A stretch of DNA of 64,000 nt from NCBI GenBank assembly GCA_008690995.1, contig VRMN01000002.1:1674001-1738000 (forward strand), given 5' to 3'. The position numbers and the translations under genes are program-made. Origin of the DNA: Porphyridium purpureum (Eukaryota). Below are positions 2,617-47,468 of the stretch, piece after piece. Positions within the stretch are counted from its first letter, which is position 1. Each line of letters starts with the position of its first letter. Below the pieces are notes generated by a model. The model saw only the letters and a list, made by a program, of their open reading frames with translations, had not been told where the DNA came from and did no database searches.

Positions 2617-3317
2617 GCGCGGTGACGCGTCCGCTCCCCGCTCCCCACTCCCCACACGCCCGCGTTCCCCCTGCCGCCTCCCTCGTTCCGGGACTCAACC
2701 CGGTCGTCACACCGCTGTCCCTCCTTCACGCACGTACATCAACATCTGCACACATGCACGTGCATCCTTATCGCTCTTCCGCCCCCGTACTGCACACGTT
2801 CCTCCCCACTGGACATACAAACACACACCTCACCTGAACGACCTGCACCGACTGACCCACTAGAACCCAGGACCAAAAACCTACCAAACCAAAACGCCAA
2901 AAAAAAAACCCCCCAGCAAGGCGCTCCGACTCGCGTTCGCACACGCGCGTTTTGTTTTGTCGGCGGTGTTGGCGCGTGCTCGGTTCGCGCGTGAGCTTGA
3001 TCGGCGCGGGAAGAAGCACGTGCGACTGTGAGCGCGGCGGCGCCTGTCAGAATCCTCCGAACGCGCGAAACGCACAGCGCATAACGCATAACGCATAACG
3101 CTCGCGCGGAAAAGCAAGGGCGCATTCAGGTACAGTGGGTACAGTGCGTTGTGCCATTGACGCACGGACCGGAGCACGCACAGCGGGACGGGATGGAATC
3201 GAGTGGCGGGGCGAGTTTTGGAGCTGGATGGTGGGTGTGTGTCGATGGATGCATGGATAGATAGAGTGGGTTCGGAGCAACGGAGCAACGGATCGCCATG
3301 TAAGAGGTTGGGGGCTT

Positions 3318-7485: not shown

Positions 7486-7586
7486 ACGCCCATTCACTTG
7501 CAAAAAAAAAGCGCTCTCTTGCTTCTTCCACACTACTGCAAGTCTACCTTTCTATTTCCCCCACCGTCCCTTTTGCGTGTGTGTCA

Positions 7587-40967: not shown

Positions 40968-42593
40968 ATGAGTGAGCTTCCGCAGCAGCGGCTCACTCCG
41001 CCACCTTCAGCGGCGACCGCGTGTGCGGCTCAAGAAAACGCAGAGTATTCCCGAAAGCAAAAATCGTTGGGCCTCCTGTGCCAGAACTTTTTGAGTCTCT
41101 ACGGCAGGGAGGGCTCAAATGACATCTGTCTCGATAAGGCCGCGAGCAGGCTCGGCGTCGAGCGCCGACGGATTTACGATATCGTGGGCGTGCTCGAGTC
41201 GATTGGCATAGTCGATCGCTTTGGGAAGAACACGTACACGTGGAAAGGCTTTGAGAACCTGACATCGCACCTGGAGCTCCTGGCAAAGGACGATGGCTTG
41301 CTCGTGGATGCTCAAGACTCGGTGGTTGGCGAGCCGGGCGCCGCGTCGCCCGCTCGGCCAGACACCCGAAAGGATAAGGCGCTTGGCATGCTCTCCGCAA
41401 GATTCGTCCGGCTGCTCATCGATCATCCAACGGAAGTTATCAACTTGGAGGACGCCGCCTTGCGTTTACTCGGAAAGAACGAGTTGGCGGCAAGCTCGCA
41501 GGAAGGCTCTGAACAGAGCACAATGATGAAGACGCGCGTTCGTCGTTTGTACGACGTGGCAAACATCCTGGCGTCTCTAAAATTGATTGAAAAGGTCCAG
41601 TCTGGGCGCCATGCTCGTAAACCGGCCTACACCTGGGTCGGCGTCTCATCAGGCGATGCAGACACAGCCGGCGCATCCCAGGTGGTCGTTTCGCAGGAAC
41701 GTGACACGCAGGTCTCGGCTGCTGCTTCTTCTGAAGCCACCGACATGCATGGCAAGGCTCCTTTGGACGCGAGGATGAAGTCAAGCAACAGTCACTCGAA
41801 AAGAGCTGGGTCGTCCTCCGTCGCGAATTCAACGGTAGATCAAGGACCGACCCCAGAAGCTGGCTCCAAGCAGCCAGCGAAAAAGCGGAAGACTGCAGCA
41901 CCTGCAAAGCCCTCCAACGAGAAGACTGCTTCTGGCGCTTCTACGTCGAAAAGGAAAGGAGCGGAAGCAGCAAAGCTCGAACCGGCGCATTCGGACGAGA
42001 GTGTGCGTGAAGCCGCGGACATGTTCTACAAGGAGATGGCAGAGGGTACAATGACTTCGCTGCGCGCGCGGGAGTGGTTGGATAAGTATCATGACGAAAT
42101 TTTGGATTGGTGGAATAGCAGAATCGACCAGACTCGCGCGAGCATCGTGTGCGATGACCCGCATGCTCGTGAGATGGTGTACAGGAGACTTGCCATGATG
42201 AAGGGAAGTGGCCAAACGCCAACTTCACGGGCAGGTGGCACGGCTTCTAGCGTGGAGGGGAAGGAAGGCATCATGAGCGCCGAAGAGATTGAGAAGTATC
42301 TCGCGTCTGCTCGCGAAGCGGGACCAGAGTACTTTGCGCGCGCTTGCCAATGGTTTGTACAGTATGAAGTATGGATGGCGTACCGTTCCGCAGTTCTGGA
42401 GATCCAGGATAAAGAAAAAGAAAAGGAGGAAGCGGGAGCCACGGCTCAGGATGTAGTGCAAGCCGAGCCGCAGATAAGTGACACTGAAGGTCATGAAGCC
42501 ACGACGCAGGCATCTGGTGCTGCGCTCGGCAAGGAGCAGCAGCAACTATGGGCTTCGGTGCTGGCAGGAATGTCAGAGCGCCTAGTATCGTGA
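40968..42593 (+). CDS. Atypical E2F transcription factor (DEL / E2F7-8-like) with two E2F DNA-binding domains
   Basis: [30 protein letters not shown] and [30 protein letters not shown]. Confidence 0.93.
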
Positions 42594-42832: not shown

Positions 42833-43411
42833 TCATTTTGAGACGGTTCGAATTCCGTTCTTGTCCACGACTTTGATCAAGAAGTCTGGCTGCTTGATCA
42901 AAAACCGAATGCGGACCTCGTCGATCGCCTTTCGCATGACCTCGAGCGCTTCCTGTTCGCTCATGTTGGGCTTGTAGTATCGATCAAGCGTGGCGAGAAT
43001 AAAGTAGGCGCAGTAGCCTTGGGCAGAGAAGGGCATCTTGTGGAGCGTACCGAGGTAGTCAAGATAGAACACCTCTGGTCCATCGTGCTGATCGTAGCCG
43101 CCCAGCAAGAGATTGACAGAGTACGGATTCTTTCTGAGCGACTTGGCGAGCTCGTTGCGCGTGAAGTTTGCGATGGCGCGCGTGCTCTGCGAGACGCCTG
43201 TTCTGAGCTGATACAGGTGCACATTCTTCTGCACGTACTCTGTAAACTGCGCGACGTCTCCCGGCTCGCCCGCCATGCACAGCAAGCGGTGACGATCCAG
43301 CTCCATGATCTTATCCATGTCCTCCTTCATCACCACAATACTGCGCGCGTTCGTCATGTCCGCCGCGCACATCACGAACCCATCGCCCGTCAACGCTATG
43401 ATCGAATCCAT
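42833..43411 (-). CDS. PSMB2: 20S proteasome subunit beta type-2 (beta4)
   Basis: GEPGDVAQFTEYVQKN, ANFTRNELAKSLR..PYSVNLLLGGYD, DYLGT. Confidence 0.95.
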   Translation of the reverse strand: MDSIIALTGDGFVMCAADMTNARSIVVMKEDMDKIMELDRHRLLCMAGEPGDVAQFTEYVQKNVHLYQLRTGVSQSTRAIANFTRNELAKSLRKNPYSVNLLLGGYDQHDGPEVFYLDYLGTLHKMPFSAQGYCAYFILATLDRYYKPNMSEQEALEVMRKAIDEVRIRFLIKQPDFLIKVVDKNGIRTVSK

Positions 43412-43917
43412 CCCCGCCTCAATCTATTCCCCACCAACCAACCCACCCACAAACACACACAGTCTTTACTCTCCGCACCTTGATCGCAATCAACACCTCT
43501 CTCCCTCTCTCCCTCTCTCCCTCTTCCACCGACAACGCGTCTCTTCGTCCACGTTTGCCAGCACTCAATAAGGTACAGCTCGACGTCTTCCTCTTCTTCT
43601 TCTCGTTGCGGTGAACACCCGCACTGTACTTAATTATTTAATACTATTATTTTGCATTTTATTAAGATTAAAGCGAGATGAAACAAACGGCGGTGGGTAC
43701 AGTTGGATCTTGTTGGTTGCGGCTTTAAAGATGACAGGATAACAGGATGACACGTGGAATGCGGAAACGCGCGCGAGATGCAGCGCCAGAGATTCAGAGC
43801 GAGCGGATAAAGCCGGAAATAATCGGTGTGAGCGTGTGAGGGTGAGGGAGCGGGCGGGGGTGTGTGTGTGTTGCTTCGGCGTGTTGCGGACGCAGCGTGC
43901 GCGTAAAGTGTGTGAAG

Positions 43918-44796
43918 ATGATGGCGTTTGTTGGAGGCATCGGGGCCGCTGCCCTTGGGCAGCCGGCGTTGGACCAGAAAAGGCATGTCGCGCGGCATCA
44001 CGTGGTGGTGCGCGGAGCTCGCGATCGATCGCTCGAAGTGCGGCTGGACGCTCTGAGGATTGCGTTGGGATCGGCGTATCACGTGCGTGCGAGCAAGAGA
44101 AGCCGCGTCTCCGTGAGACGCGAGGCGCAGGCGGTCGCGTCGGTCATGGAAGGTGGGGAGAAGCCGCGGAAGGAGCTCGCGAGGAATGGCGCCATCGAGT
44201 TGCTCGGGACGGCGTTTCTCGCGTTTGCTGTGACGAGCAAGTCTGGCGCGATGGCAGCGGTCATGGCCGCAGTCGTGGTCGCCGCGATTGCAAACGCATT
44301 GGGCCCATTCGGCCCAATTCTGCTCAACCCGGCTGTCACGGTTGGTATGGCCTCCACAGAGAAGATCACGTTGCAAGAGGCCGCGCTGTACGTCCCGCTA
44401 CAGCTGCTTGGAGCCTGTCTGGGTCTCGCACTGACCAAATACATCGGCGGCGCGACTGCCGTTGCAGCGCCGGCATTATTTATGGGAAGCACGAACAAGA
44501 CGGTTGTGTTTGAGCTCATCAACAGCGCATTTCTCATGACTTGTATCTACTGCGCCTCGTTTGGAGGTGATAATTCATCCAAGACGCCCTTTGTGGTTGC
44601 GCTGGCCGTTCTGAGCATTGCACTGTTGGGCGCAAGCTGCAATCCTGCAATCGTTTTTGGATGTGCCTGGGCTGCGGGAGCGTCTCTCATGCAGTTTGCA
44701 TTTTGGGTGCCGCAATGTGCCGGCATGGCAGTAGCCGCGCTACTCTCGGAGCATTTCCTGGTTGCCCCTAAGAAAAAAAAAAGCCCAACTCTTTGA
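43918..44796 (+). CDS. Divergent MIP/aquaporin with putative plastid transit peptide
   Basis: ELLGTAFL, LLNPAVT, Y..QLLGA, SCNPAI; six hydrophobic segments; MAFV transit peptide. Confidence 0.85.
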   Translation: MMAFVGGIGAAALGQPALDQKRHVARHHVVVRGARDRSLEVRLDALRIALGSAYHVRASKRSRVSVRREAQAVASVMEGGEKPRKELARNGAIELLGTAFLAFAVTSKSGAMAAVMAAVVVAAIANALGPFGPILLNPAVTVGMASTEKITLQEAALYVPLQLLGACLGLALTKYIGGATAVAAPALFMGSTNKTVVFELINSAFLMTCIYCASFGGDNSSKTPFVVALAVLSIALLGASCNPAIVFGCAWAAGASLMQFAFWVPQCAGMAVAALLSEHFLVAPKKKKSPTL

Positions 44797-45098
44797 TGAG
44801 TCGGTGGAATGATATGTGTCTGCGAAATGGAGTCGACGTGAAGAACATGGGCGCGGCCGGCCTCATCGCGTATGGCGCAATGAATTGCTTGTATTATGGG
44901 ATCGCCTTTGGATTTATGTGGTGTCGACTAGGAGGGTTATCCCGGGGAGGCGCGGACCTGGCAAAAGCTTGGGCCGTAACTTGGGCGGGCTCGCAGGTCA
45001 CCAAACCGTTTCGCCTGGGCCTCGCTTTTGCGTTGTCTCCGTTTGTCAAGAGATTTTTGACTCGTATGAAGAACACAGGTTCAGATTCAACAGAATAG
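44796..45098 (+). CDS. Conserved small membrane protein (FAM210/DUF1279-like, plant/algal type); may be the C-terminal domain of the aquaporin via a frameshift
   Basis: GAAGLIAYGAMNCLYY...WAGSQVTKPFR..LA.ALSPFV resembles a conserved plant/algal family; ATG overlaps the aquaporin TGA. Confidence 0.75.
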   Translation: MSRWNDMCLRNGVDVKNMGAAGLIAYGAMNCLYYGIAFGFMWCRLGGLSRGGADLAKAWAVTWAGSQVTKPFRLGLAFALSPFVKRFLTRMKNTGSDSTE

Positions 45099-45269
45099 AC
45101 AGGTCGTCTTCCCGACGTGAGCCCCTTGTCCCCTCTTGCAGCGATCGTTGGAGACTGCCAAATCCAATAACAGAGCGCTAACCGCCAAGCAAAATTTACA
45201 CACACTTTCAAAATATACAGCTCGCACGACATGGTGTCTCTTGATCTGGTCATTCGATGGCATGATACG

Positions 45270-47468
45270 CTACCTTCCACCAAATTTGGGGATGCATTTG
45301 ATCTTTCGCTCCTTGAGTGCCTCCTCGTTCAGGGTGCCCTTGTCATGACAGGCAAGTTTGTCCCCGACCTTCCGCTGTGAGACGAGCCCCGAGCCCGTCC
45401 CAAACGTGACCTTCTTTTCAGCCATCAATTCGAGCTCCATCAGAGAGCGCATTTCTTGGTGAATATTTCGGCACCAATACTTGTTTTCCATTTCAAAGCC
45501 ATGGTACGAGACAACTTTCTTGTTGTCCTCGTAGATGAGCTCTTTCTTCCACGGAAATCGGCGGACTTCCTTGAGCCAGACCGATGTTGGGAACGGGTCG
45601 AGTCGCGACTTGATGCAAAAGTAGAGCCTTTGCGATCCGCAGCGGGGACATAAATTGGTCGTCTCGGCCTCGCACGCTTCAATGTGAGGGCGAAGCTGCT
45701 CCACAAGCGCACGATTGAGTACGATGGTCCCGCCTTGGATGATGTTATTGCATCCTGTTCTGCAAAATGTCCTGTTGCAAGACTTGATCGCCTCTGTTTC
45801 CGTAAAGGGAAGCGGCATGTAGGGGTGAACTTTTTGGTACTCCTCGGTGAGGCTAGCGTGAAGCTCTCGTGTCATATTTCCCGGCTCATCCTGCATGTGG
45901 CACCATGTGCCCGATGCTTCAAAATACTGCTTTCTCAAAGGGAGACGGTACCGACCATCCGCGTCTCCGTTGTCAATGCGAATAAGCTCCAAGTCTCCAC
46001 CCCAAGTCGGCTGCTCTGACGTCAACCTGCGCCTGATGAGCTCAGAAAACGAGGAGGGGAATATAAAAACGTCGTCGTCAATGAGCGCAAGCCACTTGAT
46101 TCTCGGGTTGTCCTTCATAATCAAGTCCCACGACTCTCGAACGCGCACAAGATGCGACCATGACTGCATCATGTGCAAGCGCGGCTCTAATTCCGGTCGT
46201 GCCGGAGACACTACGTCGACGCGAATTGGTCCAGCCAAGCTTTCTAGTCGTTCGAGCACGCTTTCGCTCTGCTCGACGTTGGTCGTGATTAAGACATTGT
46301 CAGGCGGAAGGAGCCGCATGAATGTGTCGGCTTGCGCGAAGACTCGCCTCCCAAAGGTAGAGTTTCCGGCAAGCACTGTAAACAAAATGTCGTCTGAAAC
46401 CCCGCCAACACCCTCGACGCCAAATCCGACCCGAGAAAGCGCCACTTCGGTGATTTTAGAATCCGTATTCATCCTCTTTCTGACCATTTTCATCATGTTG
46501 TTGAACTTTTGAGTGAGGACCCGTGCTGCCTGCCACTGGCCCGGTTCGTCACTCGCATCGTATACCTTTAAATCCAGATAAAGAGTCGCTGATCCAATTT
46601 GCTCTTTTCGGATCAGAAACTCAAGCCACTGCACTGCCTCCCAGCCGCTAACGTTCGCCGAAACGAAAACCAACGTGCTTTCCTCGAACGGTCGCGTCCA
46701 TGCGTCCAGATCATGGACCACGAGGTCGACGGGACGAAGCGCGGTATCTGAACGGCGCCTACTGCTAGACTTTGAAGAAGCCATCTCGTACTTGCGCAAC
46801 ACGAGCGTCGCGTTGTCCAGCAAGATATGTTCATCATACTCTCTGAGCTTCATTTGGAACATCTTGGACTGAAAGTCAGCCAAGGCAGACACAGTGTGAT
46901 TTTTTTGGTTTGTCTTGCGATGCAAAGGGTCCACATCTCGGCTTCTTCGTTGGCAGCCAGGCCCTGTCTCGAGCACCACTAGTGCAAACATGCGTGGATC
47001 CGGTGCTGGGTGCGTCTGAGCGTCAAGCTCACGATCTTCAGGAAGCAGCAAACGCTCGAAAATCTTCAGGATGCCGTCCAGTCCCTGTGGCGCACCTGTG
47101 TCCTGTGTAAGCAGGTCAAAGACATAACCTGTAGTTTCAAAGTTCGTCTTGTCGTACTCCGCACAGCTTCCCACCGCAGCGAACACGAATTCGTACGGAT
47201 TTGCGACGTTCGGACTGGATTGATTTCTGAACGTGTCCTCATGTTGTCCACGTGGTAACACTGACTTGCGGGCCATCGTGTGAGCAGCGCGAGTCCAACC
47301 CAACTCATACCCAGCGAAGAACAGCGCGAGCGCGACGAGCGGCAGAAGCAACCACACCGCTCGCGCTGGCTCCAACAACCGCCATGCGACGCACAGATCC
47401 AGCAACGCAGCGCGCATCCGCTTGACCCGTCGAGTCCATGCAGCATGCAGTCCACCACCAGAAGCCAT
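45270..47468 (-). CDS. Type II membrane glycosyltransferase, GT31/Fringe-like C-terminal domain
   Basis: N-terminal TM (WLLLPLVALALFFAGY); KWLALIDDDVFI DxD motif; QGGTIVLNRALV; VSYHG. Confidence 0.75.
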   Translation of the reverse strand: MASGGGLHAAWTRRVKRMRAALLDLCVAWRLLEPARAVWLLLPLVALALFFAGYELGWTRAAHTMARKSVLPRGQHEDTFRNQSSPNVANPYEFVFAAVGSCAEYDKTNFETTGYVFDLLTQDTGAPQGLDGILKIFERLLLPEDRELDAQTHPAPDPRMFALVVLETGPGCQRRSRDVDPLHRKTNQKNHTVSALADFQSKMFQMKLREYDEHILLDNATLVLRKYEMASSKSSSRRRSDTALRPVDLVVHDLDAWTRPFEESTLVFVSANVSGWEAVQWLEFLIRKEQIGSATLYLDLKVYDASDEPGQWQAARVLTQKFNNMMKMVRKRMNTDSKITEVALSRVGFGVEGVGGVSDDILFTVLAGNSTFGRRVFAQADTFMRLLPPDNVLITTNVEQSESVLERLESLAGPIRVDVVSPARPELEPRLHMMQSWSHLVRVRESWDLIMKDNPRIKWLALIDDDVFIFPSSFSELIRRRLTSEQPTWGGDLELIRIDNGDADGRYRLPLRKQYFEASGTWCHMQDEPGNMTRELHASLTEEYQKVHPYMPLPFTETEAIKSCNRTFCRTGCNNIIQGGTIVLNRALVEQLRPHIEACEAETTNLCPRCGSQRLYFCIKSRLDPFPTSVWLKEVRRFPWKKELIYEDNKKVVSYHGFEMENKYWCRNIHQEMRSLMELELMAEKKVTFGTGSGLVSQRKVGDKLACHDKGTLNEEALKERKIKCIPKFGGR

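What the first reader, a model, noticed from the sequence alone, without database searches (positions are those of the whole stretch)
43918..45098. Plastid aquaporin linked to a conserved membrane ORF via an A10 slippery run (-1 frame) and a TGATG overlap
Seen: the aquaporin ends AAG AAA AAA AAA AGC CCA ACT CTT TGA (A10 at 44773-44782). The next ORF is in the -1 frame, and that frame opens immediately before the A run (TAA at 44769-44771). Its ATG at 44796 overlaps the aquaporin TGA. One extra A gives ...KKKKKPNSLMSRWND...GAAGLIAYG...WAGSQVTK, a clean fusion. The small ORF has no transit peptide and no room for a promoter. Knowledge: A-AAA-AAA is a -1 slippery heptamer, long A runs cause transcriptional slippage, and TGATG overlaps support termination-reinitiation. 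Inference: a recoded or bicistronic locus, or a true MIP-FAM210-like fusion hidden by a homopolymer error. Either outcome gives an unusual architecture.
Basis: partly seen in the sequence, partly recalled or inferred. Interest (0 to 1): 0.78.

Follow-up and report, generated by a model that had tools for sequence, protein, structure and literature searches.

The report
One-base break in aquaporin fusion gene
An aquaporin gene of a likely red alga, which in related red algae is one protein fused to an unstudied membrane domain, is one base out of frame inside a run of ten A's, so it would mostly make the aquaporin alone; this is likely a young slippage mutation with a little leaky read-through rather than an evolved switch.

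Summary
A10 is not an assembly error: 4 of 4 public runs laid, from 4 studies, read A10 with no indel or splice. The two ORFs are halves of one ancestral gene. In-frame MIP + C-domain proteins exist in Cyanidioschyzon merolae, Cyanidium caldarium and unnamed relatives. The window has 14 nt where the relatives' P-x5-P-x-S linker needs 15. Homology in the -1 frame starts upstream of the ATG, and that Met aligns to Val/Ile/Tyr-Leu positions, so TGATG is a by-product of a Leu-Met dipeptide. There is no stimulatory RNA structure, no A run in cyanidiophycean linker DNA, and 14 upstream ATGs, so programmed frameshifting and bicistronic translation lack support. The C-domain shows no decay, so the break is recent or still bypassed. 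Best reading (0.62): a young A-run slippage deletion giving a six-helix aquaporin without its domain, with likely minor leak. Selected recoding (0.17) and a hidden A11 allele (0.12) stay open; raw reads were not available. FAM210 membership was not confirmed. The red-algal MIP fusion itself seems undescribed.

The parts
43918..44796 (+). ORF1, 292 aa: N-terminal extension plus a complete MIP/aquaporin-family domain; the product of standard decoding
   Evidence: this exact protein is in NCBI/UniRef/EukProt as a 292-aa entry
43918..44172 (+). about 85-aa unconserved N-terminal extension, likely a plastid transit peptide (inferred; no predictor run)
   Evidence: sequence; similar extensions in fused relatives; the Phe-near-start motif is recalled
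44326..44334 (+). first NPA box (loop B)
44641..44649 (+). second NPA box (loop E), followed by Ile instead of the usual ar/R Arg
44749..44852 (+). ancestral linker between MIP helix 6 and the C-domain (E-H ... G; 35 residues in P0003, P0155, P0172); here 104 nt, one short of 105
44770..44783 (+). the frame break: 14 nt between two conserved prolines where relatives have 5 codons
   Evidence: P-x5-P-x-S in P0155, P0172, P0193
44773..44782 (+). A10 run; holds an in-frame A-AAA-AAA heptamer and meets the 11-of-12 A pattern of PMC4552401
44784..44795 (+). four -1-frame codons upstream of the ATG that still match the relatives' linker in register
   Evidence: summed BLOSUM62 +19 over 6 relatives, against -36, -42 and -13 for the other readings
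44794..44798 (+). TGATG stop-start overlap, a by-product of TTG-ATG (Leu-Met) in the -1 frame
44772..45098 (+). -1 frame, open for 108 codons: undecayed C-terminal membrane domain (one amphipathic-type helix and three further helices) of an unnamed family found alone in plants and green algae
43923..45245 (+). single unspliced RNA-run contig (X19) spanning both frames with A10
   Evidence: record 4; a contig is not proof of one transcript

Best explanation
The two ORFs are the halves of one ancestral red-algal gene for an aquaporin-family protein with a C-terminal membrane domain, and the genome is one base short in the linker's A run, likely through a recent replication-slippage deletion, so that standard decoding would give a 292-aa six-helix aquaporin without the domain. 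Shown: A10 in DNA and RNA contigs, in-frame fusions in relatives, the break confined to 44770-44783, an undecayed downstream domain. Inferred: a lineage-specific Lys/A run grew in the linker, slipped from A11 to A10 (or from A8 by +2), and was tolerated because the channel domain stays whole. Also inferred: a small share of the 393-aa fusion is still made by unprogrammed RNA polymerase II slippage or ribosome sliding on the A run (compensatory, not regulated, recoding). ORF2 is not predicted to be translated from its own ATG.
For: A10 without indel or joint in 4 of 4 runs from 4 studies. MIP and the domain on one protein in P0003, P0007, P0011/P0155 (C. merolae) and P0107/P0172 (Cyanidium), weakly in P0010/P0154 and P0193. 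4 of 17 related loci (L001-L004) are single 463-codon ORFs whose linker has a longest A run of 4. Window ORF2 falls in a 9-row set with all 6 fused rows (100/99). Linker length is 35 in 3 of 4 measurable relatives and matches an A11 reading. The -1-frame bridge matches in register upstream of the ATG. No downstream structure: z -0.61, -0.17, +1.07; no Rfam hit. The runs differ from the window by 0-1 letters in 2 kb, as one near-clonal lineage would. A runs slip and slide at measurable rates (PMC5650487, PMC4552401, PMC4363877; passages).
Against: Age is not measured: no close sister species or clearly independent isolate was seen, and one run is filed as a marine metagenome. The C-domain is kept in every red-algal homolog found and is better conserved than the MIP part (44-58% against 22-36%), so a plain loss should be costly in the wild. 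An undecayed ORF2 fits continued expression equally well. All laid data are contigs, which can drop a second allele. P0007 has a 34-residue linker, so the ancestral length is not fixed.
Confidence: 0.62

Rival explanations
1. Selected recoding: the A run is kept as a slippage or -1 frameshift site that yields both a short aquaporin and the full fusion in a useful ratio.
For: Perfect in-frame A-AAA-AAA heptamer; the only coding homopolymer of 8 or more in the window; AAA is the rarer Lys codon here (219 against 464 AAG); ORF2 keeps 21 of 28 family-conserved columns, within the 20-25 of six fused relatives; the short product is a whole MIP domain; A10 in runs from 2015 to 2025.
Against: No stimulatory fold; no A run or Lys run in the linker of any relative; relatives are plain in-frame fusions; the retained side branches in X5 match a G-to-A change plus longer poly(A), not A11 or A9.
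Confidence: 0.17
2. Hidden in-frame allele: the culture is heterozygous or mixed for A10/A11 and assemblers keep the A10 path, so the fusion is made normally from the other allele.
For: Contigs drop variants (notes); the window and runs X1/X3 differ at 43684, so some variation or error exists; ploidy could not be checked.
Against: The window and 4 of 4 runs all chose A10. In X5 the 61-nt piece over the run is unbroken at depth 253 while a side branch of depth 5 survived; an A11 path would break it at 44753/44782 unless it was popped.
Confidence: 0.12
3. Bicistronic locus: ORF2 is made as its own 100-aa protein by termination-reinitiation at TGATG or by leaky scanning.
For: Stop-start overlap; one RNA contig spans both ORFs; polycistronic transcripts are reported in Cyanidium (PMC9812998, passage); the domain stands alone in green plants; P0005 is a 96-aa 'complete' ORF from the fused clade.
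Against: The Met is not conserved and lies inside the linker homology; -3 base is T; 14 ATGs lie upstream and ORF1 starts with A at -3, opposite to the criteria in PMC11291117 (abstract); no TGGGA in 44600-44800; no targeting peptide, whereas most stand-alone homologs carry long N-terminal extensions.
Confidence: 0.05
4. Artefact: a homopolymer assembly error, or an unnoticed intron that restores the frame.
For: Homopolymers are typical long-read errors (knowledge); 56 GT/GC-AG pairs could restore a fused frame on paper.
Against: Short-read contigs of 4 studies show A10 and no joint. All 16 GT-AG options printed delete conserved helix-6 or linker residues, while the linker is already full length but for one base.
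Confidence: 0.04

Closest known systems
Cyanidioschyzon merolae aquaporin BAM80460.1 / XP_005536496.1 and Cyanidium caldarium KAK4535362.1
   Same: Same architecture: N-terminal extension, MIP domain, 35-residue linker with P-x5-P-x-S, same C-domain
   Different: Single in-frame ORF, no A run or Lys run in the linker; annotated only as aquaporin or hypothetical protein
Compensatory ('corrective') frameshifting of oligo-A indels, e.g. the Oenothera I-iota atpB mutant (PMC8254509, abstract; class defined in PMC5009743, passages)
   Same: One-base indel in a Lys-coding A run of a conserved gene; full-length product could arise by slippage on the homopolymer
   Different: That case is a plastid-encoded +1 insertion with the protein shown; here a likely nuclear gene, a -1 deficit, and no product shown
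Poly(A)-track ribosome sliding (PMC4363877, PMC4552401; passages) and Pol II slippage on homopolymers (PMC5650487; passages)
   Same: AAG-AAA-AAA-AAA meets the 11-of-12 A pattern; -1 products near 10% were reported for one human track
   Different: In those cases slippage leaves the correct frame; here it would enter it
Programmed -1 ribosomal frameshifting (X-XXY-YYZ plus a downstream stimulator)
   Same: In-frame A-AAA-AAA heptamer; long -1 ORF
   Different: No stimulatory structure found, no conservation of the site in relatives
Green-algal leaky-scanning bicistrons (PMC11291117, abstract) and calicivirus-type termination-reinitiation (recalled)
   Same: Two ORFs on one RNA contig; stop-start overlap
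   Different: 14 upstream ATGs, no UGGGA motif, ORF2 start not conserved
FAM210A/B domain (PF06916, DUF1279)
   Same: Small helical membrane domain; fourth Atlas hit at 0.84 with 188 shared features
   Different: No PF06916 hit for ORF2 at E up to 1 nor among the 25 of 32 families shown for 150 members

Membership tests
MIP/aquaporin (PF00230) | Pfam score above gathering cut-off | tested here: met
   50.4 bits against 25
MIP/aquaporin (PF00230) | two NPA boxes | tested here: met
   44326-44334 and 44641-44649
MIP/aquaporin (PF00230) | six-helix hourglass fold | tested here: inconclusive
   window ORF1 not folded; the model of relative P0003 is poor over the MIP part (mean pLDDT 56.5)
Orthodox water-selective aquaporin | Arg directly after the second NPA (ar/R filter; recalled) | tested here: not met
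   Ile here; Leu in P0003, Lys in P0007, Arg in C. merolae
MIP/aquaporin (PF00230) | channel activity | not testable with these tools
   needs an assay
Programmed -1 ribosomal frameshift | in-frame X-XXY-YYZ heptamer | tested here: met
   A-AAA-AAA inside 44773-44782
Programmed -1 ribosomal frameshift | stable stem-loop a few nt downstream | tested here: not met
   z -0.61, -0.17, +1.07 for three downstream spans; no Rfam match
Programmed -1 ribosomal frameshift | downstream pseudoknot or protein stimulator | not tested
   the folding tool predicts no pseudoknots
Programmed -1 ribosomal frameshift | shift site conserved in relatives | tested here: not met
   in-frame fusions with no A run at deep distance; close sister species not available
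Programmed -1 ribosomal frameshift | trans-frame protein shown | not testable with these tools
   needs mass spectrometry or ribosome profiling
Transcriptional slippage site | run of 9 or more A/T in the coding sequence | tested here: met
   A10; threshold from PMC5009743 passage on bacteria
Transcriptional slippage site | RNA with extra A above the DNA background | tested here: inconclusive
   only contigs; no A11 path retained in X19 or X5
Leaky-scanning bicistron (green-algal type) | few ATGs before ORF2 and a weak ORF1 start | tested here: not met
   14 ATGs; tandem ATG with A at -3
Termination-reinitiation (TURBS type; recalled) | stop-start overlap | tested here: met
   TGATG 44794-44798
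Termination-reinitiation (TURBS type; recalled) | UGGGA motif upstream of the overlap | tested here: not met
   no TGGGA in 44600-44800
FAM210A/B domain (PF06916) | Pfam profile match | tested here: not met
   none for ORF2 at E up to 1; not among 25 of 32 families listed for 150 members
FAM210A/B domain (PF06916) | remote likeness by features or fold | tested here: inconclusive
   Atlas 0.84 lead, no named hit for the C. merolae domain, no clear solved-structure match

The most novel reading that the evidence does not exclude
A red alga has turned an ancient aquaporin-plus-membrane-domain fusion into a natural slippage switch: an A10 run without any RNA stimulator yields both a short channel and the full fusion from one nuclear mRNA, a case of endogenous recoding in a red-algal nuclear gene; and the fusion ties an unnamed membrane protein conserved up to land plants to plastid aquaporin function.
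Probability: 0.17. Interest if true: 0.75.

Novelty: new variant of a known kind. Interest (0 to 1): 0.42.

Why it matters
If the break is a young mutation, it is a modest but useful result: widely sequenced cultures carry a natural truncation of a deeply conserved fusion, and databases hold only the 292-aa half. The by-product is of more lasting value. An in-frame MIP fusion kept from Cyanidiophyceae to mesophilic red algae gives a first functional lead for an unnamed helical membrane family that stands alone in green algae and land plants, and it can be tested directly in C. merolae. If the A run is instead a selected slippage site, it would be a rare stimulator-free recoding case in a eukaryotic nuclear gene.

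Tried and rejected
No whole genome is held, so paralogs of ORF2 and ploidy in this genome were not checked. A word-based search with ORF1 found only itself among 7,997 candidates scored and missed P0003, so it is weak. The first metagenome scan confirmed 0 of 86 stretches. Only 4 of the 24 listed runs were laid, so other cultures and labels (organisms C and D) are unexamined. An intron was rejected. The look-alike between the frame-0 tail and a K-S-P-T stretch in Rhodosorus is two residues off register and was rejected as chance. The X5 side branches (41 nt at depth 5.2, 33 nt at depth 30.2) were tested as A11, A9 or A12; only 'G-to-A plus longer poly(A)' reproduced the 61/41/33-nt pieces, in 1 of 6 models; I take them as sequencing or priming noise, and their letters were not seen. 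Codon statistics were uninformative: ORF2 GC3 0.57 and usage score 0.011 lie within the range of 3' ends of other ORFs. Fold searches gave nothing clear: no Foldseek match at E up to 0.001, best Z 6.1 with rmsd 6.7 over 83 residues. The fusion model was too poor to judge domain contact. The sigma-70 scan is irrelevant to a eukaryote. Three look-ups of earlier scan findings returned nothing. The Porphyridium genome paper was not held. PMC3111385 covers green algae only (passages).

Full report
Observation. The window holds a 292-aa ORF at 43918-44796 with a Pfam MIP hit (50.4 bits, cut-off 25) and two NPA boxes. A10 lies at 44773-44782, TAA at 44769-44771 opens the -1 frame, and TGA 44794-44796 overlaps ATG 44796-44798 of a 100-codon ORF ending at 45098. 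The run is unusual: the other two homopolymers of 8 or more in the window are intergenic, the longest sense A run in 45,066 nt of 28 other long ORFs is 7, and AAA is the minor Lys codon, 219 against 464. The organism is inferred to be a unicellular red alga, probably Porphyridium-like, from 55.7% GC, long uninterrupted ORFs and its nearest homologs; no call names it.

A10 is real. Of 24 runs listed, 20 hold the stretch; 4 were laid, from 4 studies. X1 (depth 130, whole stretch in one contig) and X3 (depth 180 over 44050-45400) look genomic. X19 is an RNA run with one contig over 43923-45245. X5 is labelled 'DNA?' but has no cover over 43493-43852 and uneven depths, so I read it as RNA. All 4 show no indel and no joint. 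X1, X3 and X5 are flagged as possible sources of this DNA, so they are not fully independent of the assembly, and contigs drop rare variants. The only listed difference is C>T at 43684 in X1 and X3. X5 has small side pieces at the run. Of 6 graph models, only a G-to-A change at 44772 plus longer poly(A) reproduced the observed 61-, 41- and 33-nt pieces; A9, A11 and A12 did not. A simple A11 bubble could still have been popped.

The two ORFs are one ancestral gene. A search for longer relatives of ORF2 found 1 protein among 180 candidates, P0003, 419 aa, with a MIP domain and 52% identity to ORF2. A profile search gave 415 representatives at E up to 0.001. Of the 150 aligned, 5 carry a MIP hit at E up to 0.1: P0003, P0007, P0011, P0107 and, weakly, P0010. 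Their clusters name C. merolae BAM80460.1 and Cyanidium caldarium KAK4535362.1; Rhodosorus marinus P0040/P0170 has the domain behind a long hydrophobic region without a MIP hit. P0193 has half a MIP (24.2 bits, just under cut-off) joined to the domain. In a tree of 51 C-domains (45 unfused or unassigned rows chosen by hand from about 170), window ORF2 falls in a 9-row set with all 6 fused rows, P0005 and P0027 (100/99); P0027 shares a cluster with P0193. Only 101 columns were kept and most forks are open. Of 17 related loci, 4 (L001-L004) are C. merolae-like single 463-codon ORFs whose linker DNA has a longest A run of 4. Named stand-alone members come from land plants and green algae and are all uncharacterised.

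Where the frame breaks. From the Glu after helix 6 to the conserved Gly, the linker is 35 residues in P0003, P0155 and P0172, 34 in P0007, and not measurable in P0170 and P0154; the window gives 35 with A11 and 34 with A8. P0155, P0172 and P0193 share P-x5-P-x-S. In the window the first Pro is in frame 0 (44767-44769), the second Pro and the Ser are in frame -1 (44784-44792), and 14 nt lie between them instead of 15. The four -1-frame codons before the ATG score +19 against 6 relatives, the other readings -13 to -42; the signal comes from P0155, P0172 and P0007, while P0154 and P0170 score negative. The Met aligns to Val in P0003 and Leu in P0155 and P0172. TTG-ATG always spells TGATG, so the overlap needs no explanation of its own.

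No decay downstream. ORF2 is 44-58% identical to the fused domains, which are 39-57% identical among themselves, and keeps 21 of 28 family-conserved columns against 20-25 for six fused relatives (family median 25). It folds with confidence into four helices (pLDDT 89.6) with no clear solved relative. So the break is young, or the domain is still made.

Recoding signals. The heptamer A-AAA-AAA is in frame. Downstream spans fold no better than shuffles (z -0.61, -0.17, +1.07), Rfam gives nothing, pseudoknots were not tested, and no relative has a Lys or A run there. For a bicistron, 14 ATGs precede ORF2, ORF1 starts with A at -3, the ORF2 ATG has T at -3 (4 of 28 long ORFs do), and no TGGGA lies in 44600-44800. 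In favour of a separate small protein: P0005 is a 96-aa 'complete' ORF in the fused set whose upstream DNA I could not see, and 14.5% of Cyanidium genes are reported on polycistronic transcripts (PMC9812998, passage).

Mechanism. Most likely (0.62) a Lys-coding A run arose in this lineage's linker and lost one base by replication slippage; a +2 gain from A8 is not excluded. Standard decoding would give a whole MIP domain with a short basic tail, which may be why the loss is tolerated. Some full fusion is likely made by accident. The run meets the 11-of-12 A pattern, and one such human track gave -1 product near 10% of the zero frame (PMC4552401, passages). Ribosomes slide on iterated AAA (PMC4363877, passages). 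Yeast Pol II indels rise exponentially with tract length and favour insertions (PMC5650487, passages). An oligo-A indel in plastid atpB is corrected this way (PMC8254509, abstract). These steps are inferred, not shown here. Rivals: selected recoding 0.17, hidden A11 allele 0.12, bicistron 0.05, artefact 0.04.

Novelty. A homopolymer frameshift with possible leak is a known kind. The MIP + C-domain fusion is in databases but annotated only as aquaporin or hypothetical. Five paper searches (listings and abstract starts only) showed no description of it, and PMC3111385 treats green algae only (passages). Supplements were not read and subscription journals are not covered, so this is weak evidence of absence. 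FAM210 membership failed the Pfam test and rests on one Atlas lead. Plastid location is inferred from the N-terminal extension and a recalled motif. Interest 0.42.

Noticed in passing
window 43684: Runs X1 and X3 both read T where the window has C (intergenic): an assembly error or a strain difference.
   Followed up: no
window 42833-43411 (-) and 45270-47468 (-): The gene is divergent from a proteasome beta-type subunit gene (PF00227) and convergent with a 732-aa gene with a faint galactosyltransferase hit (E 0.16). A 1,941-nt X5 contig starting at 44773 runs on into the latter, which hints at overlapping 3' ends.
   Followed up: no
window 2899-2908 and 7502-7510: Intergenic A10 (followed by C6) and A9; the first is a natural control for read errors at the A10 studied here.
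   Followed up: no
P0169, P0171, P0170 (Rhodosorus marinus cluster): One transcript gives the homolog as two ORFs (181 and 103 aa) and another as one (316 aa); the break is inside the MIP-like part and looks like a retained intron, not the break seen here.
   Followed up: partly
P0154, P0170: In these red-algal fusions the MIP half has lost both NPA boxes and scores weakly or not at all, while the C-domain stays conserved.
   Followed up: partly
P0005: A 96-aa 'complete' ORF from the fused set that starts at the Met before the conserved Gly; it may be an independent split or an incompletely spliced transcript.
   Followed up: partly
P0126, P0015; L007, L008, L010: The same C-domain appears behind a phosphorylase domain (PF01048), behind TRAF-type zinc fingers, and near the start of 557-715-aa ORFs; some may be gene-model fusions.
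   Followed up: no
window 40968-42593 (+): 541-aa protein with two E2F/DP DNA-binding stretches (PF02319), the layout of atypical E2F (DEL) factors as recalled.
   Followed up: no
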